From positions 78,740,001-78,804,000 of the forward strand of contig OZ296657.1 in NCBI GenBank assembly GCA_965655095.1: a stretch of DNA of 64,000 nt, written 5' to 3'. The notes beneath the pieces are model-generated. The model was not told where the DNA came from. It made no database searches and saw nothing but the letters and a program-made list of their open reading frames with translations. Within the stretch, counting starts at the first letter, position 1; every line of letters starts with the position of its first letter. The stretch comes from Haplodiscus bocki. Lineage: Eukaryota. The position numbers and the translations under genes are program-made. Below, piece after piece: positions 15,601 through 63,406 of this stretch.

Positions 15601-16192
15601 GCTAGAAAAAGTTTCTCCCGCACTTTTCTTTAAAAAGGCAAAATCGTCGATTGAAACCTTGTCTATAGGAACCAACCCTCTAGTCCGTGAATTCGAAAAT
15701 CGATGTGAAGCAATATCAATAGCACATTTCTGAATCTTTAGATTATTACACTGATTGACAAAGGACCAAAAAACATGATTTATCAACTGCATTTTTCATT
15801 TCAAATGAAAAGCTTTTGATTGAAACCGTGATGGAAATCAAACCTGTAAAAGTTGGGAAATTTGAACTTGAACATCGAAAGGAGTCATAAAAAGTAGCAC
15901 ATTTAGAACCTTAGTGTCATCAAAATTCGAAGGCAACGAGCAATTTTATTAGCTTCCTAACCAACTTTTTTTGTGCACATGAAAAATTGTCCATTCAGAC
16001 GTTAGTGGAGGATATCAAAACAGTAGCATTCTTGTTATATGGTTTTGAAAATCAACATGAAATAAAAAGAATTAATTTTTCTGGGAATTTCTGGACTATA
16101 ACGACCTTGTTACATAGAACAAAATCAATGACATCCCAATCGAATAGTTCTCCACAAGTAAAAGTTTTTCGATTCAGACCTGTGGCTGAATT

Positions 16193-16308
16193 TAAGACTT
16201 ATGAAGAATAGCCTTCGCTACAACGCAGTAGTGCTGACTGAGTCTACCCCCAGCACACAACACAATCGAATAAGCAATACATTTTCAAAACCCCCACTAC
16301 GTGCGACA
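16193..16308 (+). repeat. Element A 5' LTR (only the 3'-terminal ~115 bp is present)
   Basis: Roughly 85% identical to 31647-31760; ends ...GTGCGACA, 3 nt before the PBS. Confidence 0.85.
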
Positions 16309-16329: not shown

Positions 16330-17308
16330 ACGTCGATGAGCTATACTTGTTAAGTATCAGATGATCTTTTCTCCGCCTCCCAACGTGGTCATTTGTAGTT
16401 TTAATTTTAATTCTTATACTGGGTGCTTTGATTTCATTTATTACAGGCGCTTCTTTTGGAATAATAGTTAATTGGGCTTTAGACTTCTATCAGAGCATTT
16501 TTCACTCCAACCTACAGAGAACCTATCCCTTGGAATAAATACATCGAATTGAGTCCTTCAATTCTGTTTTACCGCAGTTTTTCAAAATTTAATTTATTTT
16601 TTGAGGAGACGAATCAAGATTTAGAAGTTTATTTAAATTTGCTACTCTATTTATTTATATTTGTTACAATAAAAATAATACTGGTTTTATTGCTAAATCC
16701 TCCAGTTCTGGTTGCACTATTCGAGATTGACGAAGCTCTGAGCAGCAGAAACTTTAGCATTTGGAAAAAAGAAGAGACGTTGCGCTTTTCCTAAATCTCT
16801 TGCTGATTCTCTTCCTGTCTCTACTCTAGGGACCCAACTATATCTTGGCAGTCATTAAAATTTGGCCAATTCTGAACAAACAATCTGACGAATAATTAAC
16901 TAATGCCTCTGGAACTTGGAGAACACCCTAATCAGCTGTGGTACTCCTTTGAACATAACGAAGTCAAATCAGTGTTTCTATTTTGGCCGTGGACAATAAA
17001 GACCCCAACTGAACAACTAGAAGTGACAATAACAAGGATTGATTTCACCCTTCATAGAGTTTAGGCTTCGCCTACACATTCATCCCGCTGGGAAACCCCT
17101 ATTTAGCAAATTCATAACGCTAACGAGATTCCACGAGCATTTTGCTTCAACTATCGCCGCTATCCAAAATTATCAAGATTTCCCAGAGCTTGGATTTCCC
17201 GAATCGGACTTGCCGGTTATCAAATCACTCGTAACTGACCCAGTGCTGAACCAAAATACGTAGATTGTTTCAATTGTTGTTTCATAATGAATTTGGTTTT
17301 CAAACCTA

Positions 17309-17665
17309 ATGCCCCAAAAACTTGAAGGTTTGATAACAAATTTGGACCAAATACCCGAGGAAGGGTGCAAACATCTTGCACTGAATTGCCTCCGGACTAT
17401 AATTTCCCAAGACGTAAACCTAACTGTTAACATCACCTGTTTGAAGTGGACTTTTAATTATGAATTCTGCCTACGAGTAACAGCCTATGCACTGGGAGCG
17501 CCAAACGTATCCAAACAAATGGACATAGATGATTATCATTCTCCGCTTAGATCCTTAACAGATGCACTTAACTTATACGAAGCTTTCCTTGAACCCCATT
17601 TGACTTCCCATCAACTTGAATTTTTGGAAGAACTAATAGAATATCTGCATTTGAAGTCCTACTGA
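17309..17665 (+). CDS. Element A leader ORF upstream of gag, unknown function (118 aa)
   Basis: ATG-initiated open frame with helical-looking composition between PBS and gag. ORF 17039-17263 is in the same frame just upstream. Confidence 0.4.
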   Translation: MPQKLEGLITNLDQIPEEGCKHLALNCLRTIISQDVNLTVNITCLKWTFNYEFCLRVTAYALGAPNVSKQMDIDDYHSPLRSLTDALNLYEAFLEPHLTSHQLEFLEELIEYLHLKSY

Positions 17666-17701
17666 AGCATTTTGGCACAACCCCATCTAGCCTCCACAGA
17701 C

Positions 17702-19088
17702 ATGGCACTGGACAAATTTTCTGGCACTGACCCAGACCAGGATGAAGAAGCATTCAATCCTTTAAAACAGTGCCAAAATAATTTTGCTCTCGGAACTGAA
17801 CCAGACCACGCTGATGCAGAGCATGTTATGTATCTATTCAGAAAAGAAGCCTTATTCTCCTCGCTGATACGGGGAGCAGCAACCGAATGGTATTTAGGCA
17901 CTAATCTGGATGCAAAGACTTGGAATGAGGTTCGAACTGTGTTCATAACAAAATGTTCAGATGGGAGAAACAAACTTAGACACAGAATGGAAGTTGAACA
18001 TTGTATACGAGCCGTTGGAGAAAAGATTCGAAACTTTCTGCACCGAAAGAAGAAAACAGTGGACAAAAGCTGGCCTGACCATGTGGTTGGGATCACAGCG
18101 GCCGATCAGAATACTGAAAGCATTGCACAATTTCGGCAAAGAAGGCAGAGATACTTCGATTACACGCTGGGAGGATTTAGACCAAGACATCTACAACGAA
18201 AAGCCCAAAACTATTTGATGGAACATCAAAATGCAATTTGGAACGACATCTCAACCCATTTATTTAACAAAGACGTATCTTATCAAGTCTCTACTAGCTT
18301 TCTGAATGACGAAGAACAGAACAAGGCTCAGATGGCCTCCTTGGGACAAAAACTATAAAACCAACGAACTGAGTTGAAAGAACACAGAGTCAATGCTGTA
18401 GAAGGAAGCCAGAAACACATTGACCATAACCAGAAGGGAAGACAGAATGCCACAAGATTTTGTGGATACTGTAGAACCAATGGTCACACTACCAGTTTCC
18501 GCAGAAAAAAGATACGAGACGAAGAATCTGAAAAATTACAAAACGAGGCTACAGCCGAGAAAAAAGTTACGTTCACCCATGACTACCACAAGAGACCTTC
18601 CCAGGGATTTGGGCATTGGACTAGTCGGAATGGTGATAATGGGCTATGATGCCAACCCCCAACCTGACACAAGAGGAAAATTTCGACCAAGCAATTAAAG
18701 TTATATCAACTTCAGTCGAAATCGACCCTGTGATCGATGTGACTACTCGAAGAACAACAATGATAGTTTCAAAGATTACAGAGCGATATCACCATACCAG
18801 TCAAACCAAGAGCAATCCAGGAATTGGAGAAGTCACAATAACAATTCACAATTGCCTTCAATGTCGAGAAAAGATCAATCCTTCACGATTTTCCGCAGTC
18901 AACTCCGATCAATTTCACCTAATCCCTCAGTGTTCAGCCGACTTGGAAACCAAGACCCGAACAAAAATATACCCCACGACAGGAATTTCCCAGTTTCTAA
19001 CAACGGCAACAAGCCAAACGTGGTTCGATTCACTACAACAGACAAAGAAAATAAAGAACTATCGGGACTATGCCCCTTAAATTGCTGA
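17702..19088 (+). pseudogene. gag: Element A gag (capsid-like domain + zinc knuckle), disrupted
   Basis: MALDKFSGTDPDQD...SLIRGAATEWY...TWNEVRTVFITK retrotransposon gag pattern; knuckle FCGYCRTNGH in ORF 18374-18649; ends CPLNC* at a probable gag-pol frameshift site. Confidence 0.85.
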
Positions 19089-22000
19089 GGTGTCCGAGCT
19101 CAACCACTGATCAGTCCAAAAATTCAAGACTCAGTTTCAACTTTTTCTACTTCGCCACCGGAGCACTCAAACAGATAGTGGCTCACAAATTGAATTCATG
19201 TTACATACTAGAGTTTCCAGCTCAATCATAAACTATCGAACCTTTTGGGAAGTCTGCCAAACTCGGCACCCAATCACTGCTAAAAGAAGCACCACACAAA
19301 CAAAGACTTACTTTGGTCAAGTTGTGCCCATGATTGGATTTGTAACATTAACTTTCAGTTACGACACGGATGGACAGTTTTCTTTCCCTTTAACCCTCTG
19401 GTCTACCGAAATGAAAACTCAAAACCATCTAGGTCTTTTGTCACAAGCAAGTGTCTGGCATTCACTTTGATCTACGCGGAACTGAACTTAAAGAGCCACC
19501 AAATACTGTGTGTTATCGAAGCCTTCATCAGAACAAATCTTGCTATTTTTTTCGGAAAATCTAACAAAAAGAACTCCACATGCGATGCACATTGAAGCGT
19601 TTTCTCCTGAAGATCCCCACGGTCATTTTACTCCTGGATCAACTTTTCACCCAGAAAGCAATGCTGTTGCTACGGCACTAACATTTGTCAATGTGTTATG
19701 TACTCAATCAGAATCAAAACTGCCTATACTAACGGAAAATAACAATAACCACCAAATTATTTCACCGAAGGGCCGTATTGGGTTTTCATCATTAGATATC
19801 TCCAACAACATTGAACCAAAGTACAAAAAACGAGACCGTTATGAGCTAAGAAACGCAATCTTCCCAACAAACGAACAGCATAACAATTGTTTTCTACTCC
19901 ACTTAAAAATTCCTTCTCAGTCACGTGACGAGTTTTGCAAATAGACTATGGTATTGAAAGTTCGATCCTTGAACAGCCCAACTCTATCGGACATTGTATC
20001 TCAGCAGACGCTAAGATTAGCAAAGGATTTGAACAGTTCTTATCAGAAAGAAGTCCGCAAGTAAGGAGAGTATGCAGACGAGCCAATATTATGAAGGACC
20101 AAGTATTCCCCATCTGGGATTTTTCATCAAGACGGTGTAACTATAACCTTGTCACAGAGGAGAAGCATTCAGATAAGCCTAACCTGCAAACTCTCGCTAC
20201 AACATTGCAAAATATGCAAGCCCACGCTACCCTGCATGGAATTTCAACAATCACCATACAAAAAATTGGACTTGGACTTGACCAGATGAACTGGCAAGAA
20301 GTAGTAAAACTCCTACGAAATGCTTCTGCTTATTAAGATTTACAAATTGTGGTCTACTCATTGAACGAACACGCAATTCACGCTATGTCCCCGAAGGAGA
20401 TCCGGAATTCTATGCCAAAGATGAAAGAGATCGATATAGTGACGAATTCCATTTGAACGAGAGAGAACTGGAAACCGATTCCACTAGTGACGCTAAGTCC
20501 GGTCAACCAGTCTGCGACGAATAATTTCCCGTTTTACGCCAGAAAGAACAAAACAAATCACTCATTGAGCACTATCCTCAATATCAGCCCAAAGAGTTAG
20601 CTTATTATATCAAACAGTTCGATTTCCAATATTCATACATAACTGACAGTGAAATGATCCTACTCATTGAAATGCTAACCGACTCAAAAGATGTAAATTC
20701 CTTCCACAAATTCGGTGTTGGGAAAACCCGACAAAAACTTCACGTTACACTAAAACCAAATGTGGAACTGGAACGCCAACGAGCAAACAAAGTGCCGCTA
20801 CACCTGAAAGACAAACTCGAGAAGTTGTCCGTAAGGTGACAACATATGGATGCCGTTATCATTCGAGAAAAAGGCGATGATGACAAGATGGGTCCTCTCT
20901 TTGTTAACCCATTAGTCCTCTTGCCAAAGAATAACTACGTTAAACTAGTGACTCATGCTCACTACTTGAACTCAGTGACCAACCTCACAAGATAATCCTG
21001 GCCGTTAGAACCAGTTTAGATGATTATGAGCAGAGTGAACGGAAAGTTCTTTTTAGTCAATGACATGTCCTGTGCATACCATCAAGTACCTCTTAGCTTC
21101 GAAACACAGAAATTGACAAACTTCATCATCGGTGGACAACAACATACTTTCACCCGAGGATTCTACGGTCTGTGTGGCCTACCCAACTTCTTCAATCGCT
21201 TAATGACGATTCATTTCGACCCACTGATCAGGAAAAAACAGGCAATTACATATATCGACGACACCATCATGCAATCGCAAACCAGAGGCGAGATGTTCAC
21301 CATCATCAATGAGTATCACCCCCTTCTGCGGAAGGCTGGGTTAAAACCTGCCACCGACAAAACTTTTTTCTATCTAAAGAAAGTAAAGTTCTTGGGACAC
21401 CTTATCTCACCGGATGGGAATCAACTGAAAGCAAAGCGTGTGGACGCCTTGAGGAACCTCAAGTCACCACAGAGTAAGCAAACGTTATGAAATACTTAGG
21501 ATGACTTGGATTCTACAGCTGCTATATCAAGAACCTACACATTGATATTCAGCCCATTTATGACTTAATTAAAGACTCTACAACATTTCACTGGACCAAA
21601 AACCATGAAAAATTGTCCAACTCCTTTAAAGAACGAATTCACAAAGATTCAATCCTGGCAGTTCCTTCTACTGATTACCCTGTTCATTTTCATGTGGACT
21701 CTTCCAATGTTGGTACAGGTTGTGTTCTCATCCAACAGTTCCCTGAAGGCAAGCGAATTTTTTCGTTTAACTCTTGTTTCTTCGACAAAGCGGAACAAAA
21801 AAATGTCCACCCTCCATCGAAATATATGCGGAACCGTATCAGTTCTTCAGACATACGAATACTACATCATCCGATCACCGTTTCCCGTCTATATCTATTG
21901 TGAGCACAAACCAATTCTTTATTTATGGGGAGGCAAAGGACAACTCTCACATCGTTTCTTCCGATATCAGATGAGCATTACGAAGTTCCAGAACTTGAAG

Positions 22001-24075
22001 ATCATTTGGACGCCAGGCTTCAACTTAGCTTTTCCAATTATTCTCAGCAGAAACATCACGATCGAAGAATACCCAAAGCACCAATTGCAACACAGACGTA
22101 TTGCGCGTGATATAGAGTTTTCCGACGAGAAGCGCATTCCGGTTTCATACCAGTTTCAGCCAGGAGACAACCCTCATGATACCTGCGACGACTTTTACCC
22201 TACAAAGTACAAACGAGGAAACTAAGAAAAAATACTGAGATTACAAAACCGTCAGTAGTATACTTGACGATTTTCCAATTACTTCAACCCAACAGGCTTC
22301 TGACTGTTTCCGGATGGGACGATTTATTAACCAATTTAGACGGAAGTGTGGGCGAGACACACAATCAAACGCATCCGTCAATACATCCAATACTGAGTAT
22401 AGTTCAATCAACTCTCTTAGTTCGGCCAAAGACGACAAAGCCAACCAGGATAGCCACTACGATATTTCACACCACATTGATACGGACTCTGAAGATGACA
22501 ATATTGTATGCGATATCAGTATATAAGCTGATAAACCCCGACTCTGCCAGGCCAAACAAGCTCACGAACTAGTGATCGGAAAGACAGATGCTGCTCTAGC
22601 CCAAAAACTACTAACAGTTTCCCACGTTCCTCACATTGACACCCGAGCATTGGTTCAAAAACTAGACGAGGTTTCTAAGGAAGTAGATCAGGACGTATCA
22701 ACCATTACCGCAGAACAAATGAAGAAACCGATAATTGGCACGGTACGTTCTTGGGTTCGCGCAAACACTTCCCCTGCTTTCAGATCACCAGAAATCCAGC
22801 TAATTAAAGGCCTCCTACGATATTGTCAAAAATTTAACAGACTTGTTATTGAAGAAGAAGGACCACTCCTTTGCTACAATGAACCATCGGACAAACTAGA
22901 CGAAGAGAACTTCCGTATTTGTCTCCTTCTATCTCTATTCCATGCATGCTTCCGACTGGGACATTACAACGGAATGGTTGGACACATGGGAACAGCTGAA
23001 ACCTATGCCAATGCCAAGAGATTCTACTACTGGCCCGGAATGTTTGATTGGATATTTGCCCTGACAGCCGATTGCCTTACTTGCCAGACCAATAAGCCTA
23101 AACCAGGGCATCGGAGTGGAACTCCTCTCGAAGAATGGCAAAACGAGACAGTTCTCTTTCGTACTGTACACATTGATCATGAGGGACCTCTCCACCCAAC
23201 TATTGCTAGCAACGCCCATTGTCTCCTAATCATTGATGCATTTTCTCATTTTTTAATGGTCTATCCAGCAGCCATAGCAACAGTTCCAGCTGTTGAAAAT
23301 TGGATCCTTTCCATTGTAATTCCACAATCAATCATATACAATCGAGGCACCGCTTTCATCTACACAGAATTTGTCAACTGGAGCAAGCAACTCGGAATTA
23401 CTCTAAAACCTCCTACAGCTCATTCGCCCTGGACAAACAACAAAATTGAAACCCAAAACCAACATATTGACCGGTATTGGAGAAGTTTTGAAAATGGTCC
23501 CGGACACAACTGGTCTTCACTAGGACTGAAGATTGAATTCACCCACAACACAAGTGTCAACTACACAACTGAAAAAACCCCATTTGAAATTGTCTTTGGG
23601 ACCGAACCACAAATTCTTATGTCCCTCAAGCTGGGGCTTTATCAGAATAAGCACAAGTTTTGCTGTTCTAACTTCTGTAAGGAGCTCCGATCTGATTCTC
23701 ATACCAAGAAAAGCTGAAAAACGAGTTATTGGACAACCTACTTCAACCGCAATTATCACAAGCCCTCCTAGAAAGAGAGAGCGAAACTTTAGGCACATTT
23801 ACTCATTTACCTTCGAGCGATGCCGAGAACAGACCGCACGATCACATGCTCATCGCAATCGCTTCAAACTGGGACACCACCTCGAAGTAGGACTGCAAGT
23901 ACTGTACAAAAATCACAAACAAGACCATACACGAAGCCAGAAACTTCAACATCGAAGGCCTGGACCTTTTACCGCCATCAAGCTATCACGAGTAACACCT
24001 ATCAATTTCAGGACGGTAAAAACCCCACGATTCTTAAAACTGTTCACAGGAATTCACGATGTGTGTCAAAATTGA
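19089..24075 (+). pseudogene. pol: Element A pol: protease, macrodomain, RT, RNase H, integrase; disrupted
   Basis: Degenerate protease FMLHTRVSSSIIN (like LDTGA); RT DMSCAYHQ...YGL...YIDD...VKFLGH; RNase H HVDSSNVGTGCVLIQ; integrase GHMG...YYWPGM...CLTCQ, HIDHEGPL, SPWTNNKIE. Confidence 0.93.
19944..20363 (+). CDS. TARG1/OARD1 (Poa1p-like) macrodomain within element A Pol, between PR and RT
   Basis: SIGHCISADAKISKGF...YNLVTEEKHSDKPNLQTL...LQNMQAHA...KIGLGLDQMNWQEV...*DLQIVVYSL aligns motif by motif with OARD1 (SLAHCISEDCRMGAGIA...YYLITKK...KPTYENL...PRIGCGLDRLQWENV...DIKITVYTL). Confidence 0.88.
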
Positions 24076-24981
24076 CGGGCAACTGAAGTGTATCAAAAAG
24101 TTTGAACTGAAGTCCTCATCAAAAACAATCTTTAACCATACTGAAGACGAAGAATAGAGTCTAGAAGTCTACAAGTGCCCACCAACATAAAATCAACTAC
24201 AAACACATCAGACGACTGTGCGCAACAGACATTTTCATTCCAGGAGACCTGGAGTGTTGAAACGGGGAACTCATCACTTCAATGCATCAACTAGAAATAT
24301 CAATCCCGCAGTCACACACAAACACACCACTCAACAGAATTAATTTCAATTACAACTTTACTTCAATCAATTTGGGAGAATATAGGATAACTACTGTTTT
24401 TTGAGTACCTGACGGGAGTCCCGTCCAAATAAGAATCAACTCGTTTGATAATCTACCCACTGTAGGTGTTATCCCAATACCTGACCGCGCAGCAGAAATT
24501 GCCAACTTTTCTGTGACCCTCACAATCGCCAGTCTGATCCAGGCCTTTCCAATTTTGGACATGACGGAAAACCCAAGAATGGTAGATCTCCTGGCGTATA
24601 TGAAAACCAACCTTCGGGACCTACTCTGGGGTGTCACTGACCAACCTACTGCATAGAACTTGCAGTCTTTACAACCTGGAATTCAAACGATAGACGAGGA
24701 AGGTAGGTGAGTTGTCCACAACCCCTACGAAGTCTACAAATCAATCAATCTACTCCACCAAAAAACAATTCCTGACAGTTGGACGCTAGGCGCCAACTGG
24801 GAACTACAAACTTCTATCATCGATGGTGGAAGTAGGATCAATTTATTCTTTGGCACTTATTTGGCGATACCGGTTTTGGTCCAGTGCACTTTATAAAAAT
24901 GTCAACGTCGTTTTTTACAGTAGAGTAGCGCCTCTATAAATATAATGCTACCGCTTCGTGTTGGTGCCTACGAAGTAGCCG

Positions 24982-27224
24982 GTGAAATATATTAAGGCGG
25001 TCACTCTTCTTTCGGTAGTTGTGATGAAACCTTCCACTCTACCTTTCCCTTTTGCTAAAGCAACGGATGTTAAAAAGCAGGTCTTGTTCTTATTTATTTT
25101 AGCCAATTTCACAGAAACCAAGCTCGAAAATGCAGACTTGCAAAAAACGGCCTCCCACCTCAAGGTGACACTTTGTGATTGTGGAGAGATGCCAGCGAGC
25201 AACCTCTATGCCCTAAACCAGGTTTCCAAATTCAATATTGCCCCCGAGAACCTAGAAGTCAGCAGAACAAAAATTACGATGTACACAAAACTTTTTCGAC
25301 AAGAAATCAACGCAACAGTTTGTAGAGTCAAATATCAGAAAGAACAATAGCACTGCGGCTTTGGAGACGATTCAAGCATGGATGCCCATCATGCAGGAAT
25401 AACAATAGACCTAGCCCTCACAGCATCCCAATGCAGAACTCTGGCGAATTGAGGTTCAATCACAATAAAAGATGACACACTCGAGTTCAAGAAAAGAATC
25501 TAAACAACGGTAGTGAAACAAAAGTACCTTGATGATAATGGAGCAGATCTTAGCGACAAAGACAGAAATGAATGCGACTCATATGGATGGGTCAGTAGCA
25601 AGATATTTGAAGGCCGTGTACAAGACGTCACGCTTAAAGTACTCCTTAAGGACGGCAAAGTTATGAGCAAAGATGGATTGCAATTATCTTGCCCCCTGGA
25701 AGAACTTGAAAGCGATACTACCTCATTCGACCCTCATGCATATACGTGGGAAGCCCCGGACAAATGCGTATTAGCCGTTCATCGGAGAGAAGACGTTAAC
25801 AAGATCATAAAAGGGAAAAGCTATTACTATTTTGTCAGTGGACCTAACAACACCAGTCAGTATCTGTTCGAAGTAAAACCGGAACCACAAGGTTTTTGCA
25901 ACAAACCAGTGCACGTATACTCTACCAACTACGATTCGTTATACGTGGTTATCGACTTTGGCGGATTTGATCTGGCCTCTGGGAAACGAATTGGATTCTC
26001 AGGAGGAATACAACACCTACAATACTACCAGCCATCATTGTCGTCGGACGGCAGTTTATTCGTACACTTGAGTCACCCCATGCAGATGACCTTATCCCAG
26101 AAAAACCTCACCGCGTCAACATAGATTATGAACTTCATCAAGGCACAAAACTGGGTTATGTATTCTTCGGAAGCTCGCGGACGCTCGAAAGCCCTGAGAT
26201 ACAACTTTTAGAGAACCTATGCGAACAAGAAAGAAGACAAATAATGACTACTTTGATGCCTTCAATGGAAAACTCACGTTTAGCTGGCTACATGCTAACT
26301 GGAAACCGCTCTATGTTCCATAGTACCGTTGGCAGTCTCGCTTGGCTTCATCATTGCCCCTTGACGCGTTCTCCGCCACACGTGTTTAACCAATGTTATG
26401 ATGAAATTCCTATCTTCTGCGAAAATGCAATCTTCTTTGTCGACCCAATTACTCGACAAACCTACCCAGATGCCCAGGTTCAAAAATATTCGGACCGGAT
26501 TAAGAGTCTGTTTCAATTCCACAGGGAAGATGAAAACTCATCGTTCACTAATACATCCACTTTAGAACACAGGAAGCGACCAGCAGTATTCGGACCCAAA
26601 GAAGTGACTCCTGTATCCAGAAGAGCTTTTGGTGAAGCAGGAGATAGTGTTATCTACACACGAGCGCAGTTATCTGATTTCTGGGACAAAATCCTTATCA
26701 GCGCTGCTTCAAGGAAAGCTCTACAAAAATTCTCTCGAGAACTCATTGTCCCCAACACCGCAATTCATGGACCAGAACAATATTCTTATTATGCCCCCCG
26801 AACGGATTTCTATGTGGATAACATGGTTTCCCCCGGTTTCTTCAAAAATCAGTTTATGGACACGTTTGGCTCAGTTGCCTATGTCTTAGAATTTTGTGGG
26901 ATATATTTCTCCTGCATCTTGTTTGTCAAGCTCATCGTTGATCTCATAGTTATGATTTTGAGGCATATGGAAATCAATCGCCTTACCGGCGCTTCACTTG
27001 GATTTGGCAAGACACTCCTGAGTGCTTCATACAATTTGTTCTTGACGTCTATTCTAACGTCAGTATTCAATCCCCAAGCTCCGCTTTTGCAAGCGCTGGA
27101 ACCTGAACCAATGCCTACAAGAAGTGAAGACGAGACTATAGATCCTGCAGACGGAAATAGGAAAAAGGAAGAGCACCTTTATCCAGTTGTTCACTGCTCC
27201 ACTACAGCTCTTTCCCCAGTTTGA
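24982..27224 (+). pseudogene. env: Element A envelope glycoprotein, chuvirus-G / class III fusion-protein-like, disrupted
   Basis: Hydrophobic leader, then LCDC...NLYALNQV...VCRVK...*HCG...ASQC; later LCEQER..AGYMLTG..LAWLHHC..QCYDEIPI..FFVDPITR; C-terminal TM segment FCGIYFSCILFVKLIVDLIVMIL. The cysteine and motif pattern matches chuviral glycoproteins as I recall them. Confidence 0.75.
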
Positions 27225-28066: not shown

Positions 28067-29284
28067 ATGGATGCAACCACTTCTCAAGATGAAACTGAAC
28101 CTAATGGTCAAGCCAAATGCCCCAAAACTTCCTCGGATTCCAGGAGCCCCCCAGTTTTGGAGCAACTTCATCTACTGACCACTCAAACTGACCACCTCAG
28201 AAAAACCTCAGAACAAGCACTGGAACAAACAAAGCCCCTAATTCAAACATTCCCGCTGGCCAACATGAAGCAGTTCTAATATCTTCACTCCGTTCAACAC
28301 CAAGTAGCTCAATTTTTTGTAGATCTCAATATCGAGAAACGCAAACGCTTCAAACAACACGCAGGTATTCGCCAGCTCGAAGATGGGCTAGCCCAAATGC
28401 GTCGGGAGGTCAGTGAACTCTCACCTCCTTCATTTCTTGTTCCTTTTACAGTCAATCCACCGTATTCTACTGGTTTCCAAGACAATTGTGCCCTAAACAA
28501 GGCCCAAATACCAAAGCCTTCGATAACATTAACTCTTTAAAGAGCCTCCAGCACTACATTCAAATCATGGCTACCTGATCAACCACGAGGTCCACCACCA
28601 ACCATACCAACTTCCAGACATTCTTTCTTGGACTTAGACGCCCGAGCAAAACATCTGGAAGAAGAAATTACAAAGGCAAGGAACTGTCGCGAAACAATTA
28701 TATCCATCTACCGATCCCAATTTACCTTTCTCTATGACAGATTCCAAGCCCTTGAGTCTGGAGGCCCAGACACTAACCTGTGGAAATTAACTTCACTGAT
28801 ATTGGATTTCGACACCGCCAAATCTGCTACCCGACTGGACGATGCTGCCAAAATCCCCAATACTCATTATAATAGCCCTGTGTACCGCACACACCCTCAA
28901 GGCTTTAACTTTTTTATTCAATTTTACCCATATGGTTTGGACTCTGCCTTAGGAAATCACGCCTCAGTTATTTTCGCCTTTTGCCCCGGCGACTACGAAG
29001 CTTTATTGACATGGCCGTTCCCAAAAACAAGTCATCTTTCAGTTCTCGATCAACTCGACCCCGAAAATAAGTGGACCCTTACCTTTGCACCCTCAGGGAA
29101 AATATTCTCTCGAAGGCCTACCCGAGAACCGTGTCCTACCCTGACGAGTTTCATTTTCTTCCCACACAGCAGGATGTTCAGCATGACGGAAAACTTCCAT
29201 TTAATACATACTTTATATTTGAAGATGAAAATCACCGACCTGCCCGACCCTGCAGGAGCCACACCTTCCTCATTCCCAACATGA
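28067..29284 (+). pseudogene. Element A accessory gene: coiled coil + TRAF-C (MATH) domain, no RING; two in-frame stops
   Basis: LWKLTS...YNSPVYRTHPQGFNFFIQFYPYGLDSALGNHASVIF...GDYEALLTWPF...LSVLDQ is the TRAF MATH signature. ORFs 28055-28279 and 28628-29284 share a frame. Confidence 0.85.
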
Positions 29285-29896: not shown

Positions 29897-30095
29897 AACA
29901 AGCACCATCGCAGCAACCAGTATCCATCTATCTACCAGCACCCCGGCAACAACCATCAGTATCCCAGCCGCAACCAGCAAACATCCATCAATCGGTATCC
30001 CAGCAACAACCAGCAGTATCCCGGCCGCAACCAGCAATCATCAAGCAAGCAGTATCCCAGCCGCAAACAGCAATCAACCAGCCGCAACTAGTATC
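29897..30095 (+). repeat. Degenerate ~21-bp CAGCAACAACCAGCAGTATCC-type tandem repeat
   Basis: Recurrent ccgcaaccagca / agtatccc units. Confidence 0.75.
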
Positions 30096-30099
30096 CATT

Positions 30100-30302
30100 G
30101 AGCAGCAGTCCAACATCAAGTAGCTTCAGTACAGCAGCGGTCCCACAACAAATAGCTTCAATACTGCATCTGTCCCACAACAGGTACCTTCAATACAGCA
30201 GCGGTCCCACAACAGGTAGCTTCTATACAGCAGCGGTCCCACAACAAGTAGATTCAATACAGCAGCGTTCCCACAACAAGTAGCTTCAATACGGCAGCGT
30301 CC
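30100..30302 (+). repeat. 32-bp minisatellite, 6 full copies plus a partial copy
   Basis: Unit CAGCAGCGGTCCCACAACAAGTAGCTTCAATA, starting at 30100, 30132, 30164, 30196, 30228 and 30260. Confidence 0.95.
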
Positions 30303-32576
30303 TAGCAGCAACCAGTTATCATCCGGCAAGAAGCGTCTGCGCGACTAAAGCCCGCCTCTGTTAGTTATCATTACGTTTCCTAGTAGAGGACATCTCGTTA
30401 GTGGTTGACCTAGGATTAACTGTCCGGCAGCAGGGTGTACGTTACCGCACAGTGTTTTTTTTACTAAAACTTTGATTAATTGGTAAAAGTAAAACACATA
30501 TAATAAACACGACCAGTTGAGAGTCCTTAAGACTAATGACCTGGTCGCAGACGAAAGATAAAATTGAATTACTGGTGTCCTGTAAGTCCAGATGCAGATG
30601 GTATCTCCCGGCAGGTGACTAAATACCAGCCTTAAGATTAAGTCCGACGAGCGAGTGTTTCATCATAGCACGAAGGTTTTTTTATACTAAGAATAGTCTA
30701 AAATGCATGTAATTAAAATGCATGTACTTTAAAATCCCTTTCCTGTAAGCCTGATGGCATCTCCAGCTTGGACTGAAGCAGCGACTAGGAGGCTAACTTG
30801 TTGGCCTTGTATTTCAAGTCCAGTGCAAGCATGGTTTAGCTAAACGTGAAACAAACTGTAAAACGAACTGGCTAAAAAAGCCGACTAGACAAGACGGAAA
30901 TTACGTCACCCGCACTAGTCAAAAAGTTAAAAGGTGTATGTTTTTGCTTCATTTACAGATGTTCCAGTTCTGACAGCAGCTATCGTGGATCAGTTGAATC
31001 ATAACATTTCAAAATTTTTTAATTTTATTTGAACTAATTTTAAAGAGTCCGTTCTTTCTATCAATGATTTTATAAAATTTTCTTTCAATTGAATTCAATA
31101 AGTTCAACTTTTGTAATTATTTTTAAAATTGCAGTTCGGACTAAATTAAACTAGTCTGAATTGGTGTTACTGAATATATACTTTCAGCTCTAATTTTAAA
31201 CAAGTTTATTTTCACCTGCTTTATAAGCTTTATAACTTCAATCAATTGGCGGCATCCCCTTCCAAGCCTGCTGCTAACACTAAACCTCCTTGTTGAATAA
31301 ATTGCGGCTCTTAGTTTTTTTGTTAAATTAATGTTGGCTGACTTTTAATCAACTTGCTAATGGCTAATGTTGTTGAAATAAAGAAAGAGAAGAATTGACT
31401 ATACTTTGTGAAGTATAAAGACCATTTGGCAATCTCCCGTGTAATATTCCATGCTTAAAGCCTCTGACAGAGCTGAGTAATTCCCCCTTGCATACGTGTG
31501 GTCACATTCCTTTCAGCAGTTCAACATTTTGAAATACCTTCACTGACAAATAAACTTTACTTTGTATTATTTTCCTCTGTAGCTCATATGTCCTTGCTTG
31601 AATTCACGCAATCCCTTTGTTCGCGCGGTTAAGCAAGGCACACTATTGAGACTTATAAAGAATAGCCGTCGCTACAATGCTGTAGTGCTGACTGAGTCAA
31701 CCCCCAGCAAGACACAACTGAATAAATAATACACTTCCAATACCCCCACTACGTGCGATACCTTCTTCAACCTATCTTGATTCACGAGTGCTATGAAAAA
31801 AATAATATTCCCAATTCAACAAAAATTGTACAAGTCAATTGATTGAGACCGTCAGGCACAAAATACTGGCTCTAGTCACGGCAAGAAAAAACAAATTTCC
31901 TGCAGCGGCAAATCCTAACTAGTCAGATATTCGGCACGTTCAGGTTAAAAAACAGCGTCGAAAGTTGCGTTGATTTTGCCCTAGGCTTAATAAACTGACC
32001 GTTGGGACCAATGACCTTTGGTTTCGGCTTCAGTTTAATGGTTACTTGTGTGCGCAATTTTCTTCCGTAACACTCTTTAGACAGCCTTCGATTTTAGAGC
32101 TGGGAAGTATACATTTTGTGACAGTTACTGCAGTTATACACACTTCGAAAACGATGCTGTCGTCTAATTTACCTTCCAGCCGACAAAAAAACTTCAAACG
32201 TTTGGATTGGTCTTTAGGCCGACCCTTTGCAGTATGATTGTATTATTTAATTTTGGGCAAGCTGTTCTAGCGAAAGTGATTGTTTTCTGCGCCTATGAAT
32301 GTTGACTTGACATCAATGCGATTCCTGTATTATACCCAGTAGAAATTGATTACTCTTTCAGTTGACCATTTACTATTGTGGTCTAGTTAACCTACGGATG
32401 TCAACTGATCTGATCTTATCTCTCTCTTTTTTTAGTGGATTTTGTAGTTGTAATTCTCCTGGTTTTTTCCCCGGGTTTCTTTTTTCACTTCGAAAAGTTT
32501 TCTACAATACTAACAGCATCAATTCAAGCAGAGCTTTCTGTGTTGGTTTGTTTGTCCCGTTTTCTCGAGAAGCGGA

Positions 32577-43675: not shown

Positions 43676-44316
43676 TATAACAATTGCTTGTTTTCGTTCT
43701 TTTGATTCTATTTTGAATAGCTATCGAAATGCGCGGGCGATTGTTGGGGTTTTAAAGTTGCTATCTCTTGGCGTTGAAAAGGGGGATATCTCTATTGAAA
43801 AACAAATTTGCAAAAAGAAGAAACGGCTTTAATTAGTTTTAGTTATAGTTAAACAGAATTTTTACATTCTGTGCAAGACAATTTATCAGACAAGATAGAA
43901 TGAGAAAAATTACTCGACTTACATTTCAGTGGTTGAGGGTGGGTCTGAATAGCTGAGTTTTTACTTTTTCGATATTTATTTCTGCAGCTGCAAGTTGCGA
44001 GTCAGGTGAAGAGCAGATGTAAACAGTCAAAATAAAACAATAATAGCTCATGAAAAGTAATATTTAAAATAAAGCAACAATAGATTTAAACAAAATTCAC
44101 ATTTGCACTTTCAATATGCAGGTGAAATTAATAAATATTAAAGCGCTAAGCACAAAGACATATGAACGTGTTTATATTTTTAACGGTTATAAAATAACAC
44201 AAGAAAGAAATTGCAGCAGTCTTTTTTATTGTATATGTAGCTGAGTCTTTCCCTTTTTTTGAAAAAGACATTAAAAAAGATATTAGTCATCGATTTCTTT
44301 TCTCCGCTCCGTTATA
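43676..44316 (-). repeat. Element B 3' LTR
   Basis: Direct repeat of 54498-55140; termini TATAAC...GTTATA. Confidence 0.95.
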
Positions 44317-44343: not shown

Positions 44344-44884
44344 TCACAAGGTAACTGTCGCGGTGTAGGCTATGACGGAGGGGTTGCAGACCATGCAGGT
44401 TTGAAGTCGTTGAGCGCGCCGGGCGCCGTCCACACCGCAGCAGTTGTAGACTTGGCGCAGATGTCGGTTTAGGAGGATAGTTTTGGCTTCTTGAACAAGG
44501 GGGACAAGTGGGGCTGTGCTGGTGGGTGCGCTGGGATTTTTGTCCGGATGAATTAATAGAAGAATGTGACGGGCGTGCGAGTTAAGAGTGTCAGCTGAGG
44601 CAGTTGGTGAGCAGCATAAAAGGTCATATAACATGGGACTCTGGTGCAAAGTCGAGGGTCGTTGCGTATGTAGACAGTTGATGGAGTAACATTTCCTTAT
44701 ATGCCTCATGGACTTGGGGATTTACTGCAGCGGCCTTAAAAGAAGACACTTGTTCAGTTAACTCGAAAGTACGAGCAAGCAAGCTGGAGTTTTTTTCATT
44801 CAGAGCAGTTAAACGTTGATTTAAAGCAGTAATTTTAGTTTCTTTCTCTCGCAGTTCTTGCACGGTTTCCCCGAGAACCAACAC
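44344..44884 (-). pseudogene. Element B accessory gene: coiled coil + DnaJ (J) domain, one frameshift
   Basis: LYDLLCCSPTASADTL...LLLIHPDKNP...VQEAKTILLNRHLRQVYNCCG is a J-domain with intact HPD. Removing 1 nt near 44635 joins it to coiled-coil ORF 44624-44884. Confidence 0.85.
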
Positions 44885-45646
44885 CGAGAAGTGTTCTTAG
44901 CGGCCGCGTGGGCTTTTTCAAAGCCTTTTTGGAGGCACTGCACTGCAAATTACGTCACCAGAAGCTCCATGGCCTGTTCTGCGTCCATGGATGCTTCGGC
45001 AGCTACATCAAAGGTGTCGGGGAGGACAGGAGGTGGTAAAGGAGGGAAGCACAGACAATTTTCAGTGGGCTCGTTGACATTCACACTGATGGAGAGGGAA
45101 GTGGGAGGAGGAGCTGGTTAGCTGCGCGAACAAAAGGGCGGTTCTGGGGAGCGTTGATTTTCTTGAGAGTGACATTTTGGGATGTCGTGTTGATTCGAAT
45201 AACACGATACTCGAAAGGATCTAGCAGTCGTGCGAGATGTCCAGGAGCCAAGTCCGCGACGCGGCCAGAGCAGGTGACGAAAGGGGCAGCGCGGAAAGAA
45301 ACAGCTGAAGAGAGCCTGAAACAGAAAAAAATTGATTGACTTTTGTTACGATTTAAAATGACAGACTGTACAAGACAACATGCAAACAACAGCAGGGATG
45401 GGGCACGGGAATGTGTCCAAAGGCCCCGATTCAGGAAACTCAAACAGTAGGGAGGATCTTAGGCGATAAGTGGCACCGTACGGAAACGCACGTTGAAAGA
45501 CACTAGCAAAGCTAGGTGAAAACATGAACAGGGTTGAGAAAGTAGCACGGAAACGTGCTTAAAGACACCAAAAGTTGGGAAAATTAGTGTATGAGCATGA
45601 GTTATGTTGTTGGAGGAAATTGTACGGACACGTACAAAAAAAGACA

Positions 45647-47394: not shown

Positions 47395-47407
47395 CGAACC
47401 TCTTGGT

Positions 47408-50400
47408 TCAACGTTGTGGCTGTGTTTTGCCCGAACGATTGGGGGAATTGAAATCAGTAAGATTTGTCGGCAAGTTTGACATAAATAAGGGTTGTGCTGG
47501 ACGCTGTTGCATCGTCGATGCTCTCAATGTTCGATGTTCCTGTGGCGTTTGTGAAGCAACGCGAAGCTTTGCGGTGGCTTGATCAATGATTTTTCGTTTG
47601 CGAGAACGTCCACCAGGTCGACTTGTCGGAGTACTTGGGGAAAACGTTTTGTTTGACAGTCTTTGAGAAACAGGTGAGCTGGAAAGAATATTAGTTCGGT
47701 TTTTGGTTGTTGAAGTCGACGTTGGTGTGATTGTGGTGCTTTGTTCTGAGTTTTGGGCGTACGGGACTGTCGAAGCAGGTGTGTGCGGGACTGTGACTGT
47801 CCCCATCGGGGGTGTTGCTATTGCAGGTGTAGGACATGGTATTGGGAGGTTGCTACCTGAGAAAGTCTTTGCTATGGAAGGCGAAAATTGTTGAGGTGTT
47901 GGTAAAGATGGCCACTCGGTGTAGTAGGTATGATCGATATCATTTCGAGGAGTTGAAGACCTAAGCGTCCGATTTCGAGTTGGTACATTAGAAGTTGAAG
48001 TCACAATTTCAGGAGTTGTTTCTCTGGTCGGGATGTTCGTAGTGGGGGGCTTCCTTCGGAATGGTTTCAAACGGTCGTAATGTAACATGGATTCTTTTCC
48101 TGTACTGACTTCTTTGATTCGATAGTTCACGTCATTCAAGCCTTTCAGTATAGTGTAAGGACCACGCCATGGGCTAAAAAAACTTGGGGCTTCGGCCAAC
48201 CGGTACCACTGGCGTATGTAAAAGCACTTCTTGTCCGTCTCGGTGGGTGGGGCCTTGTACCTTGTGAATATATATGGCGTTACGCCGTCGCTGATTCTTG
48301 TTAAGATTGTCGTGGACCAACGCAAATGCTCGCTGAAAAGCTTGTTTTCTCTGATGGACAAACTCATGAACATTAGTTGGACAATCGGATTCTGGGCTCG
48401 GAAACATGAGATCCAAAGGTATTGAAGTTTCTCGACCGTGCACCAATAATTGTGGGGTGTATCCCGTGGATTCATGCACAGACGATCGATATGCCATCAT
48501 CACGTAAGGGAGTTGTTGTGACCAGTTGTTTTGGTCTGCGTTTATGCACTTCGCGAGCATATTTTGGAGGGTGCGGTTCATACGCTCAATGACCGCATTA
48601 GACTGAGGATGGAAGGCGGTCGTACCAGACTTGTCTATCTCAAGGAGAGAAAGTAGGTTCTTGAAAAGTCGAGATTCAAACTTGCGTCCTTGGTCACTGT
48701 ATGCTATGTGGACAACCGAAGCGACTAATCTAATGTTCTATCAATGCAGTGGCAGTTGTTGATGCCCTCTGGTCCGGTAGTGGTACAGCTTCATACCATT
48801 TACTGAAGTGGTCGCCAATCAAGCGGATTACTTTGTGTCCGTTGGATTCCGGTAACGGTCCCATGAAGCCAATGCCAATGTGGCGGAAAGGATAGCTAGC
48901 TTCCCAATCTACAAGAGCATGGCGATGTGTTTTTGGTGGGTTACTTTGGTGGGTTACTTCGTGTCTGACATTGGGGAGAACGACTGACAAAAAGTTTCTC
49001 ATCTTCTTGGAAACCGGGCCAATAAAATCTTCGTCTAATTTTTTCGGTAACCTTCGCTACACCTAAGTGTCCGCCAGTTGAGGAAGAGTGATTAGATTCC
49101 AAAAGTTACTCTACCATACTCTGAGGAACTATTAGTTGAAAAGAAACACGACCGTATGTGGGGTCAAATTTACGACAAAGTGCTCCGTCTGATATACAAA
49201 GACTGCTAAATTGATTATAAAGTTGCCAAGCTAACCGTGGGCTACCCTGGAGGTCGTTGTTTCTTGGTACACGTGACTGTCGAACCCAATCTTTGACCAA
49301 CTTCAATGATTCGTCTCTATCTTGCGCAAGTCGGATACTTATGGTGAACGAGGGGTTGGCATGATCAGTCACACTGTTATTGGAGGCTTCTTTTAACTCC
49401 GTGGAGTCCAACATATACACTGTGAGACGTATTTGCGATGTTGCGAACTCCTCCTTTAACATTATGCGGACTAGGTGCCATTCTAGTTGGTCGATACCAC
49501 AACCAAGTTTGGGCATACTGACTGCTTTGACATCATTGTCTTCTGCATGACGTCGAAGGGCCACTAGAGACGTTCGCAAGGAGCAATATGTTGGTTTGTC
49601 GAAAACTCGAACTTTGGTTAGAAGATGGTAGATGTATCGTTGACTTGACTCCAGAAATTGTGGGCAAAGTGATTTTTGATGCAGAGTGTCAAGTTTCAGG
49701 TAGTTTGTCGGATACTTTCGTCGAAAAGTACGGGCGATTCCAGCACTCATCTTGTAGTCCGAGGAGACACAGTGAGCGAGAGAAACGCTGGAGCTGAAGA
49801 TATCGCCAACTTTTTCATGGTACTCGAAGGTTTGAACTTCAGTGTTCGGATTAGCCAAGGAAGACGGATTCGGTGGCTGTGGAACTGGATGAGGGGTAGT
49901 AAGGACTTCAGTTGTTAGGGTCAATTCCTGGTTTGGCATTAGGCCATTCATCTTCCACTGTTGGCTTGACTTCTGAAAGATCAACCACTTTGGGATCGTG
50001 GTGAATTATCTGCACTTTAGCTTGAGGAATGCGGGACAACCCATCGGCATGTCCAATTGATTTTCCCGGTTTGTGTCGGACCTCGTAATCGAAGGCGGCC
50101 AATTTCTCGAGCCACTTTGCTGGTAATCCGTCAGGGCCTTTGAAGTTGTGGAGCCACTGAAGTGCTCGGTGATCCGTAACGATGGTAAACTTGCGACCCA
50201 AAAGATAATGTCGAAAATGGCGTGTGAAGTGGACAATTGCTAAAAGCTCCCGCTTGGTTGCAGAATATCGGGTTTGAGCTTTCGAGAAAACCTTGGAAGC
50301 GTAGCAAATGGCACGTTCTTTGCCATTTTGAACCTGAGCGAGAACAGCGCCCATTGCAGTCAAGCTTGCGTCTGTGTACAAAATAAAAGGTTCTTTCATT

Positions 50401-52263
50401 GATGGGAAATCTAAAATGGGAGTTGTTAGGAGGCGTGCTTGCGGAATTTCGAAAGCTGTCTGTGCCTCAGGTGTCCAGCTGAAGGAAGGACTGGACTCGA
50501 TTAATTTGTGGAGTGGTCGAGCAATTTCGGCAAAGTTTTCAACATAACGGCGGTAATATGAGCAAAGACCCAGAAACGACTTTACCTCTGTTTGACTGGT
50601 GGGGATGGGGAATTTTTTTACTGCAGCGATTTTTTCGGGATCTACCTGTAGACCATTGGCGCTGAGGACATGTCCCAGAAAGTGGACTTTGGTTTTGAAG
50701 AACTCGCATTTCAAAGATTTATTTTGAGATTTGCTCCACGAAATCGTTGGAGGACGGCTCGGAGTCTTTCTAAATGCCCTTCAGGGGTTGCGGCCAAGAT
50801 AATACAATCGTCCAAGTAAGTAACAGTGGTCGTCCATGTCAGACCTACCAGGACATGTTCCAATAAACTTTGAAAAGTGTTGGGACTTCCCGTGAGACCC
50901 ATAGGCATTCGGAGCCATTTGTAAGAGTCAAAGGGGGTGCTAAACGCTGTGAAGTCTTGACTCTTTTCATCCATTGGTAACTGATGAAAGCCCCAGTACA
51001 TATCAATCGTCGAAAAGAAAGCACTTCCTTCTAACGTGTCGAATATTTCTTCAATTGACGGTATGGGCCAACAGGACTTGATTGTTTGTTGATTCAGTTG
51101 TCTGTATTCTATTACTAATCTCAACTTACCATTTTTCTTTGGGACCAGCATGGCTGGTGCGCTATACGGACTATGACACGGCATTATAAGCTCTTTGTCA
51201 AGAAACGCGTCAATCTTTTCTCTTAGATCTTGCTTGTAGTGGAGAGGTAGTCTTCGATTCGGTAATTTGACGGGCTTTGAACCCGGGTAAAAATCAATCT
51301 TGTGACTTGTGGCATCGCACTTGCCGATGTCCCATTGATTTTTTGAAAAAACATCTGCGAATTCTTGCACAAGTTCAGCGAACTTATGCCTCATTTTGAT
51401 GGGTATCGCCGGACTGATTGAGTTTATAACGTGCTTGAGGTCATACGACTCATCAACTTCATTTGTTTTTGACTTCGGTGGTGCGGAAACTATGTGGTTC
51501 AACGCTTGTTTTGGAAAGATTTCAGAGGTACCCAATGTTGTGTTTTCGTATACCGTAATCACTTCATCCCAGGTTTTTTCAATTGTGACCGTTACATTTT
51601 CTTCTGCGAAGTTTAAAAGGACGCTGGGGACCACGGCGTTTTTCAAAGTACTTATTCGTGCCACCGGCTCAAATAGAGCGGGCATTTCCGTCAATGGTCG
51701 TTGCCATTCTTGTATTCGGGCTGGCAAAATCATGGCATATCCAGCCGGCACGGAGACTGTCACCGTCGCTATCACCCGAAAAACTGTGTTCACTTCGTGA
51801 TTGAATTTACGGTTATACAATGGTACATGATTCTTGGAATCCAAGCGAAGTAGATCTTTGGAAAACAAGGGGTCGCATTTGTTAGTTCTCAAGAAGTCTA
51901 GTCCCACAAGACAATCTGCTTCTGAATCGATGAGCACGTGAAATTCGTGTTCGTAGTGTTTATGACCGATTGTGATCGGTAGGCGAACTGTTTCTCTTGA
52001 AGTAATTGGCAGCTTCTTTGCAGCCACGAGTTTGGTTTTCGTCGCCAAAAGTTTCAATTTACCCCCAATTTTTGAAGCTTATCAAAAACTTTTGAGCTGA
52101 GGCAAGACAGACTTGCTCCACACTCGCAGACTGCTTCGATGGTTTCATCACCGAAAACAGTCATTTTTAGAAACACACTCCCGTGATCAACCACGGAACT
52201 GAGTGTTTGAATTTGTCTGCGCGGCGACCCGTGGGCGTAGACTTTTCTAATTTGAAGAATCAT
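47408..52263 (-). pseudogene. pol: Element B pol: protease, RT, RNase H, macrodomain, integrase; disrupted
   Basis: PR AVCECGASLSCL (like DSGA); RT PYSAPAMLVPKKNG, MPMGL, YLDD; RNase H LYTDAS...TDHRAL...ADGLSR; IN FMGPLP, MNRTL, YRSSVHESTGYTP; WRGPY motif. Confidence 0.95.
49409..49828 (-). CDS. TARG1/OARD1-type macrodomain within element B Pol, between RNase H and integrase
   Basis: GDIFSSSVSLAHCVSSDYKMSAGIARTF...RYIYHLLTK...KPTYCSLRTSL...SMPKLGCGIDQLEW...IRLTVYML is end-to-end similar to OARD1, with no stops. Confidence 0.93.
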
Positions 52264-63292: not shown

Positions 63293-63406
63293 GTGGTTAA
63301 ATATAGTGGACTTCTTGAAATAAAATGGGTAGTATGTAGCTTTTATTAACTATATTTTGCTCCATACTACCCATTTTATTTCAAGAAGTACACTATATTT
63401 AACCAC
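63293..63406. repeat. Long inverted repeat / MITE-like hairpin
   Basis: 48-bp arms (63293-63340 and 63359-63406) with 2 mismatches around an 18-bp AT-rich spacer. Confidence 0.9.

What the first reader, a model, noticed from the sequence alone, without database searches (positions are those of the whole stretch)
19944..20363. TARG1/OARD1-like macrodomain between protease and RT in element A
Seen: the full OARD1 motif set lies in the Pol reading direction. The GLD aspartate (TARG1 D125 equivalent) is kept; the K84-equivalent position reads LVTEEK, possibly a one-base decay from TKEK. Known: TARG1 removes ADP-ribose from acidic residues and from ADP-ribosylated thymidine in DNA, as DarG does. 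Inference: as part of Pol it would be packaged in particles and could protect RT/IN or nascent cDNA from ADP-ribosylation.
Basis: partly seen in the sequence, partly recalled or inferred. Interest (0 to 1): 0.85.

Follow-up and report, generated by a model that had tools for sequence, protein, structure and literature searches.

The report
ADP-ribose eraser domain inside retrotransposon Pol
A decayed jumping gene in this genome carries, inside its copying-enzyme polyprotein, a domain like the human enzyme TARG1 that strips ADP-ribose tags; related domains sit at different places in several distant retrotransposon lineages, which suggests these elements erase a host tag that would otherwise hinder them.

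Summary
Confirmed. Window 19944-20363(+) encodes a TARG1/OARD1-type macrodomain: the only PDB sequence hits are TARG1 (E 2.5e-11) and the best fold match is TARG1 (Z 18.1). It lies between protease and RT of a decayed env-bearing Ty3/gypsy element. This copy is a pseudogene (stop, frameshifts, no catalytic Lys). The family keeps the Lys in 114 of 120 relatives and the Asp in 115 of 120, and an unbroken 1827-aa Pol holds PR-macro-RT-RH-IN in one frame. The larger result: a second, distant element in the same window has such a domain between RNase H and integrase. Other Pols carry it after integrase, after RNase H or before protease. This covers six RT lineages, 23-46% identical; Lys is kept in 21 of 21 and Asp in 20 of 21 sampled domains. 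Best reading: an active ADP-ribose eraser made with Pol that protects replication. Activity, packaging and substrate are inferred. Fish retroviruses with macro-domain ORFs are reported; ten searches found no paper describing this in Ty3/gypsy Pol.

The parts
19944..20363 (+). TARG1/OARD1-type macrodomain in Pol of element A; pseudogene copy (Lys84-equivalent absent, Asp125-equivalent kept, stop at 20334-20336)
19126..19941 (+). decayed aspartic protease followed by a ~135-aa spacer of unknown fold, upstream of the macrodomain
   Evidence: tblastn of P0101/P0351; PF13975 below cut-off on intact relatives; atlas gave no named family for the spacer
20393..21481 (+). acidic linker and reverse transcriptase, broken
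   Evidence: PF00078 E 6e-14
21358..22249 (+). RT thumb / RNase H, frameshifted
   Evidence: PF17919, PF17917
22248..24053 (+). linker and integrase, broken
   Evidence: PF17921 E 1.6e-12
17666..19088 (+). gag-like region, broken (inferred from position and a zinc-knuckle-like stretch read by eye; no Pfam hit)
24979..27224 (+). env-like region; the last ORF matches a class III-type viral fusion glycoprotein family
   Evidence: PF24664 E 1.3e-12 on 25971-27221
16192..16308 (+). probable 3' end of the 5' LTR of element A, followed by a TGG (primer-site-like)
   Evidence: 115-bp direct repeat, 85% identical to 31646-31758; LTR status inferred
31646..31758 (+). matching remnant of the probable 3' LTR of element A
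49406..49822 (-). second TARG1-type macrodomain, in Pol of element B between RNase H and integrase; Lys and Asp kept, no stop inside
   Evidence: E 2.4e-28 to TARG1; PF01661 E 4.6e-4, under cut-off
47411..52194 (-). Pol of element B (PR-RT-RH-macro-IN), frameshifted
   Evidence: tblastn of P0313
54500..55140 (-). 5' LTR of element B
   Evidence: 645-column match, 94% to 43678-44316
43678..44316 (-). 3' LTR of element B

Best explanation
In active members of this Ty3/gypsy family, Pol contains a catalytically competent TARG1-type (ALC1-like class) ADP-ribosylhydrolase. It is translated with protease, RT and integrase, so it is delivered to the particle or replication complex. There it removes ADP-ribose that host ADP-ribosyltransferases add to the element's enzymes (acidic residues) or to its RNA/cDNA (end phosphates or bases), keeping reverse transcription and integration going. 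This is a counter-defence, like the macrodomains of RNA viruses. Shown: fold, motifs, fixed place in Pol, conserved Lys/Asp pair, recurrence at several Pol positions. Inferred: activity, packaging, substrate and the host enzyme opposed. The window copy of element A is dead.
For: Fold and sequence are closest to TARG1, then DarG. All 23 of 23 listed cluster members that span both flanking domains keep the macrodomain between them, and 29 of 31 with the domain have both Lys and Asp (60 members listed from clusters of 617, 498, 22 and 923). Lys is kept in 21 of 21 and Asp in 20 of 21 retroelement domains while the domains have drifted to ~34% identity between A and B. The domain occurs after PR (A, P0147, P0140), between RH and IN (B, P0313, P0329, P0330), after IN (P0216, P0238, P0267, P0325 twice, P0347), after RH in an IN-first Pol (P0346, Nucella lapillus) and before PR (P0219, Exocentrus adspersus). 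Free position suits a diffusible enzyme better than a part tied to one neighbour (inference). TARG1 acts on acidic-residue MARylation, nucleic-acid end phosphates and thymidine-ADP-ribose through Lys84 (PMC7050489, PMC8883491, passages).
Against: No activity, expression or packaging data. The opposing host enzyme is unidentified. Family A differs from TARG1 at two loop positions near the ligand site (Ser at Gly41 in 112 of 120, Phe at Ile44 in 113 of 120; the role of that loop is recalled), so its substrate may differ. Between subfamilies the domain diverges about as fast as protease and linkers (74% against RT 92%; 53% against RT 80% in B). No dN/dS was possible because only proteins were available. 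Most Ty3/gypsy elements replicate without such a domain (general knowledge). The AlphaFold model was built on a TARG1-like alignment and leans that way.
Confidence: 0.55

Rival explanations
1. The domain is mainly an ADP-ribose reader that tethers the pre-integration complex to ADP-ribosylated chromatin or damage sites, as chromodomains steer chromovirus integrases (recalled).
For: In four lineages it lies C-terminal to integrase, and in family B just N-terminal to it. P0325 has two tandem copies, as readers often do.
Against: In family A and in P0147, P0219 and P0346 it is not next to integrase. The catalytic Lys/Asp pair is kept in 21 of 21 and 20 of 21 domains.
Confidence: 0.15
2. It serves RNA end healing or metabolite clearance (ADP-ribose-1''-phosphate, O-acetyl-ADP-ribose, ADP-ribose caps on the tRNA primer or genomic RNA) rather than opposing an immune ADP-ribosyltransferase.
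For: P0216 has a Tpt1/KptA-like domain right after the macrodomain (PF01885 E 3e-6). Fish endogenous retroviruses are reported with CNPase or macro-domain ORFs (PMC4977317 passage). TARG1 removes ADP-ribose from RNA ends and hydrolyses O-acetyl-ADP-ribose.
Against: Only 1 of the 20 retroelement proteins sampled has the Tpt1-like domain, and it appears to lack the Tpt1 catalytic motifs (read by eye against recalled motifs). Poa1p ranks below TARG1 and DarG in the fold search (Z 13.2 against 18.1 and 16.1).
Confidence: 0.15
3. It clears ordinary PARP1-type marks from the gapped integration intermediate to speed host repair; a helper for integration, with no conflict involved.
For: TARG1 interacts with PARP1, releases whole polymers and reverses DNA end ADP-ribosylation.
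Against: Animal hosts usually have their own erasers (PMC4245714 table passage). This reading needs the domain to enter the nucleus with integrase, which is not evident for the protease-proximal positions.
Confidence: 0.1
4. It is a captured host fragment carried passively, with no function for the element.
For: The same elements carry other host-like ORFs (TRAF/MATH in A, DnaJ in B), so capture is frequent here.
Against: It is in-frame at a fixed place in 23 of 23 informative members, and the catalytic residues are invariant across lineages only 23-46% identical in RT.
Confidence: 0.05

Closest known systems
Human TARG1/OARD1/C6orf130 (ALC1-like macrodomain class; PDB 2LGR, 4J5R)
   Same: Minimal macrodomain fold (Z 18.1, rmsd 1.7 A, 126 aligned), the same motifs, and the Lys84/residue-125 pair in the family.
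   Different: Embedded in a retroelement polyprotein; family A has Ser and Phe at the Gly41 and Ile44 positions; activity unmeasured; the window copy lacks the Lys.
DarG antitoxin macrodomain (PDB 5M3I)
   Same: Second-best fold match (Z 16.1); shares the catalytic Lys (PMC7050489 passage).
   Different: DarG lacks the acidic partner, which these domains keep; no DarT-like gene was recognised in the Pfam scans of the elements' ORFs; weak sequence match (E 6e-4 for P0101).
Macro-domain ORFs of fish epsilon-like endogenous retroviruses (Basta et al. 2009, seen only as cited in PMC4977317)
   Same: A reverse-transcribing LTR element carrying a macro domain.
   Different: Described there as additional ORFs in Retroviridae; here the domain is inside Pol of Ty3/gypsy elements. 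The original paper was not held, so its macro subtype and position could not be checked.
Viral macrodomains (alphavirus nsP3, coronavirus Mac1; TARG1-like domains of invertebrate RNA viruses)
   Same: An ADP-ribose-handling domain inside a replication polyprotein. The best BFVD matches include a thrips-associated flavi-like virus and Kadipiro virus VP8; TARG1-like homologues in viral genomes are noted in PMC4245714.
   Different: The well-studied ones are MacroD-type (Z ~7-11 here) and belong to RNA viruses, not retrotransposons.
Env-carrying Ty3/gypsy 'errantiviruses' of invertebrates (Chary and Hayashi, PMC13524379)
   Same: gag-pol-env layout; Ty3 is the best PDB match for Pol (E 7e-55); a fusion-protein-like third ORF.
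   Different: That survey does not mention macrodomains in its main text, its Pol bridge section or 7 supplements.

Membership tests
TARG1/OARD1-type macrodomain | Minimal macrodomain fold closer to TARG1 than to MacroD types | tested here: met
   pLDDT 84.6; TARG1 Z 18.1, MacroD-type 9-10.4; the model was built on a TARG1-like alignment
TARG1/OARD1-type macrodomain | Sequence similarity to TARG1 | tested here: met
   E 2.5e-11 window A, 2.4e-28 window B, 7.6e-24 intact P0101
TARG1/OARD1-type macrodomain | Catalytic Lys84 in the window A copy | tested here: not met
   this copy is a pseudogene
TARG1/OARD1-type macrodomain | Catalytic Lys84 and acidic residue 125 in the element family | tested here: met
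   Lys 114 of 120, Asp 115 of 120; 21 of 21 and 20 of 21 across lineages
TARG1/OARD1-type macrodomain | ADP-ribosylhydrolase activity | not testable with these tools
   needs biochemistry
Pfam Macro PF01661 | Score above the gathering cut-off of 22 bits | tested here: inconclusive
   no hit for window A, 20.5 bits for window B; 22.5 for P0001, no hit listed for P0101
DarG / DarTG toxin-antitoxin | Lys without the acidic partner, paired with a DarT toxin gene | tested here: not met
   Asp kept; no DarT family in Pfam scans of the element ORFs
DarG / DarTG toxin-antitoxin | Positive ssDNA-binding surface beside the active site | not tested
   no electrostatics computed
Ty3/gypsy (Metaviridae) LTR retrotransposon | Pol order PR-RT-RH-IN with Ty3-like RT/RNase H | tested here: met
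   P0101 domain map; best PDB hit Ty3-G Gag-Pol
Ty3/gypsy (Metaviridae) LTR retrotransposon | Paired LTRs | tested here: inconclusive
   element A: only a 115-bp 85% repeat; element B: ~640-bp pair at 94%
Env-carrying errantivirus-like element | Third ORF with a viral fusion protein | tested here: met
   PF24664 E 1.3e-12 in element A; element B's env-like ORF had no Pfam hit
Named Ty3/gypsy clade | Placement in an RT tree with reference elements | not tested

The most novel reading that the evidence does not exclude
Distant Ty3/gypsy lineages of invertebrates have repeatedly gained or relocated a TARG1-type eraser inside Pol because their hosts run an unrecognised ADP-ribosylation defence against retroelements, possibly DarT-like modification of single-stranded cDNA or of RNA/DNA ends. 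These domains would then be retrotransposon-encoded counter-defence enzymes against ADP-ribosylation, and they would point to the host writer.
Probability: 0.3. Interest if true: 0.87.

Novelty: new variant of a known kind. Interest (0 to 1): 0.63.

Why it matters
Macrodomains are established counter-defence enzymes of RNA viruses, but ADP-ribosylation is not a recognised front in the conflict between animals and their LTR retrotransposons. A catalytically intact TARG1-type domain kept at five different Pol positions across six distant RT lineages suggests repeated selection for erasing ADP-ribose during retrotransposition. It offers small natural proteins for a direct test of which mark is erased (protein, nucleic-acid end or thymidine). 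It also bears on the open question of what endogenous substrate TARG1's DNA-directed activity has in animals. A practical consequence: many 'OARD1-like' gene calls in invertebrate genomes may be transposon fragments.

Tried and rejected
Pfam on the window A domain: no hit; rejected as evidence of absence because phmmer, a custom profile and the fold search agree. Single versus repeated capture: the quick macrodomain tree (76 rows, 142 columns; 21 retroelement domains and 55 drawn at random from 131 other representatives) needs 8 changes, but well-supported branches force only 1, and the AU test does not reject one clade (p 0.378). Repeated capture is therefore not shown; relocation after a single gain is equally open. 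The 'other' group may hide unrecognised retroelement fragments. The careful tree did not finish. In the RT tree the A lineage is joined to long branches and its placement is unsure. Atlas searches gave no named family for the PR-macro spacer (a degenerate dUTPase-like fold is my recalled guess, untested) and only generic RT clusters under 0.9 for macro-RT. A long-protein search with the P0267 macro region returned only 7 of 106 candidates, so breadth across animals is under-sampled. Literature: ten searches found no description of TARG1-type domains in Ty3/gypsy Pol. Term searches in PMC12440569, PMC7729036, PMC12690878, PMC8672886, PMC7599744, PMC10499221 and PMC4695847 gave nothing on it. 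Subscription journals, Repbase reports and bioRxiv supplements were not searchable and may hold it. No tRNA genes in the window. The host organism is not established.

Full report
Observation. Window 19944-20363(+) translates in one frame to a ~130-residue stretch with HCISxD, LVT-x, KP and GxGLD..W motifs and a stop at 20334-20336 before a last short strand. Against all PDB sequences at E<=1 it matches 5 distinct sequences, all human TARG1/C6orf130 (best E 2.5e-11). Pfam gives no hit. A profile of 40 TARG1-like proteins scores it 81.4 bits against at most 6.5 for the 908 reported of 1000 shuffles. An AlphaFold model (pLDDT 84.6; alignment of 41 rows, so biased towards TARG1-like folds) is closest to TARG1 (Z 18.1, rmsd 1.7), then DarG (16.1), with Poa1p at 13.2 and MacroD-type domains at about 9-10. 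The TARG1 Lys84 position holds Glu in this copy and position 125 holds Asp. The review PMC7050489 calls that residue Glu125, whereas the PDB alignment shows Asp there by my numbering.

The element. The domain lies in a decayed Ty3/gypsy element on the + strand, roughly 16.2-31.8 kb. It has a gag-like region, a Pol broken into at least six frame segments with 15 stops in the aligned parts, RT, RNase H and integrase hits, an env-like ORF matching PF24664 and a TRAF/MATH ORF. Only a 115-bp, 85% direct repeat remains of the probable LTRs. This copy cannot make Pol.

The family. A search among longer proteins found 323 relatives among 402 candidates; the 120 listed are 60-78% identical. Sixteen of 120 hold protease, macrodomain and RT in that order in one ORF; 1 of 120 shows an odd order. 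P0101 (1827 aa, cluster of 617) is an unbroken PR-spacer-macro-RT-RH-IN Pol whose best PDB match is Ty3 Gag-Pol. Between subfamilies the macrodomain is 74% identical against 92% for RT, 84% for protease and 62-78% for spacers and linkers. Family A has Ser and Phe where TARG1 has Gly41 and Ile44 (112 and 113 of 120).

A second case in the window. Element B (- strand, LTRs 43678-44316 and 54500-55140, 94% identical) has a TARG1-type domain at 49406-49822 (E 2.4e-28), between RNase H and integrase, with Lys and Asp kept. All 10 hits (one is the window's own protein) keep these residues wherever covered, 9 of 9 each. P0313 is an unbroken PR-RT-RH-macro-IN Pol. The A and B domains are 27% identical in the window and 34% in intact copies; their RT-RNase H regions are 29-33% identical. 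Among 60 listed members of four clusters, all 23 that span both flanks have the domain between them, and 29 of 31 with the domain keep both residues.

Wider recurrence. The B domain finds 3061 cluster representatives at E<=0.001; 150 were listed, and 143 of them have both residues. I scanned 57 of the longer ones with Pfam and all 150 by BLAST with Pol domains. Eleven of 150 are retroelement-embedded: 8 by BLAST, P0219 by Pfam, P0224 through its cluster member P0347, and P0140 by closeness to P0147. Most of the rest are stand-alone or fused to DNA ligase, PNKP, BRCT, NADAR or HMG domains. With and the cluster look-ups, the domain occurs after protease (A, P0147, P0140; P0327/P0328 by eye only), between RNase H and integrase (B), after integrase (P0216, P0238, P0267, P0326, P0347; twice in P0325), after RNase H in an integrase-first Pol from the snail Nucella lapillus (P0346), and before a protease in the beetle Exocentrus adspersus (P0219). 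The six lineages with RT are 23-46% identical to each other. Across 21 domains from 20 proteins, Lys is invariant and Asp is kept in 20. Whether this reflects several captures or one gain followed by relocation is unresolved: the tree needs 8 changes, but one clade is not rejected (p-AU 0.378).

Mechanism. TARG1 uses Lys84 and residue 125 to remove ADP-ribose from acidic residues, nucleic-acid end phosphates and O-acetyl-ADP-ribose, and it reverses DarT-made thymidine-ADP-ribose (PMC7050489 and PMC8883491, passages). A domain inside Pol is made in step with RT and integrase and, by the general rule for Gag-Pol elements, would reach the particle (inference). Conserved chemistry together with free position suggests a diffusible enzyme that serves replication. 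I favour an eraser opposing host ADP-ribosylation of the element's proteins or nucleic acids (0.55) over an integration-targeting reader (0.15), RNA-end or metabolite housekeeping (0.15), help with integration-gap repair (0.10) or a passenger (0.05). None of these was tested experimentally.

Prior knowledge. Macro-domain ORFs in fish epsilon-like endogenous retroviruses are reported (PMC4977317, passage citing Basta 2009; the original was not held). TARG1-like homologues in viral genomes are noted (PMC4245714, passages), and the BFVD search returns such domains in invertebrate RNA viruses. Automatic annotation already sees some of these fusions (name of P0238; precomputed PF01661 on RT-bearing proteins). 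The recent survey of env-carrying Ty3/gypsy elements (PMC13524379; abstract, section 7, term searches of the main text and 7 supplements) does not mention macrodomains. Ten library searches (listings only unless cited above) found no paper describing TARG1-type domains inside Ty3/gypsy Pol. The library lacks most subscription journals and Repbase reports.

Verdict. The finding is real and correctly identified in outline, and it is broader than stated. It is a new variant of a known kind: a known enzyme class with precedents in viruses and fish retroviruses, here as a recurrent, catalytically conserved Pol module of Ty3/gypsy elements, apparently undescribed in the literature I could search. 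Interest 0.63; the function is directly testable with natural domains.

Noticed in passing
window 28541-29284 (+): TRAF/MATH-domain ORF (PF21355 E 3e-13) between env and the probable 3' LTR of element A; a candidate captured immune-signalling gene.
   Followed up: no
window 44344-44721 (-): DnaJ-domain ORF (PF00226 E 3e-8) just before the 3' LTR of element B.
   Followed up: no
window 45559-47523 (-): Env-like ORFs in element B with an RSRR site followed by a hydrophobic peptide (F-type by eye); no Pfam hit. Elements A and B seem to carry different env types.
   Followed up: partly
window 19492-19941 (+); P0101 135-255: Conserved ~135-aa spacer between protease and macrodomain; atlas look-alikes are unnamed eukaryotic clusters at 0.92-0.94. 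Possibly a degenerate dUTPase-like fold (recalled guess).
   Followed up: partly
P0216 residues 1174-1513: Pol ending in a macrodomain followed by a Tpt1/KptA-like domain that appears to lack the catalytic motifs.
   Followed up: partly
window 32514-35453 (+): Uninterrupted 979-aa endonuclease-RT ORF of a non-LTR retrotransposon.
   Followed up: no
window 29910-30317 (+): 57-bp and 32-bp tandem repeats in the 3' part of element A.
   Followed up: no
window 17033-17665 (+): Two short ORFs upstream of the gag-like region of element A; the longer has no Pfam hit.
   Followed up: partly
window 63293-63406: A ~115-bp self-complementary (inverted) stretch, 85%.
   Followed up: no
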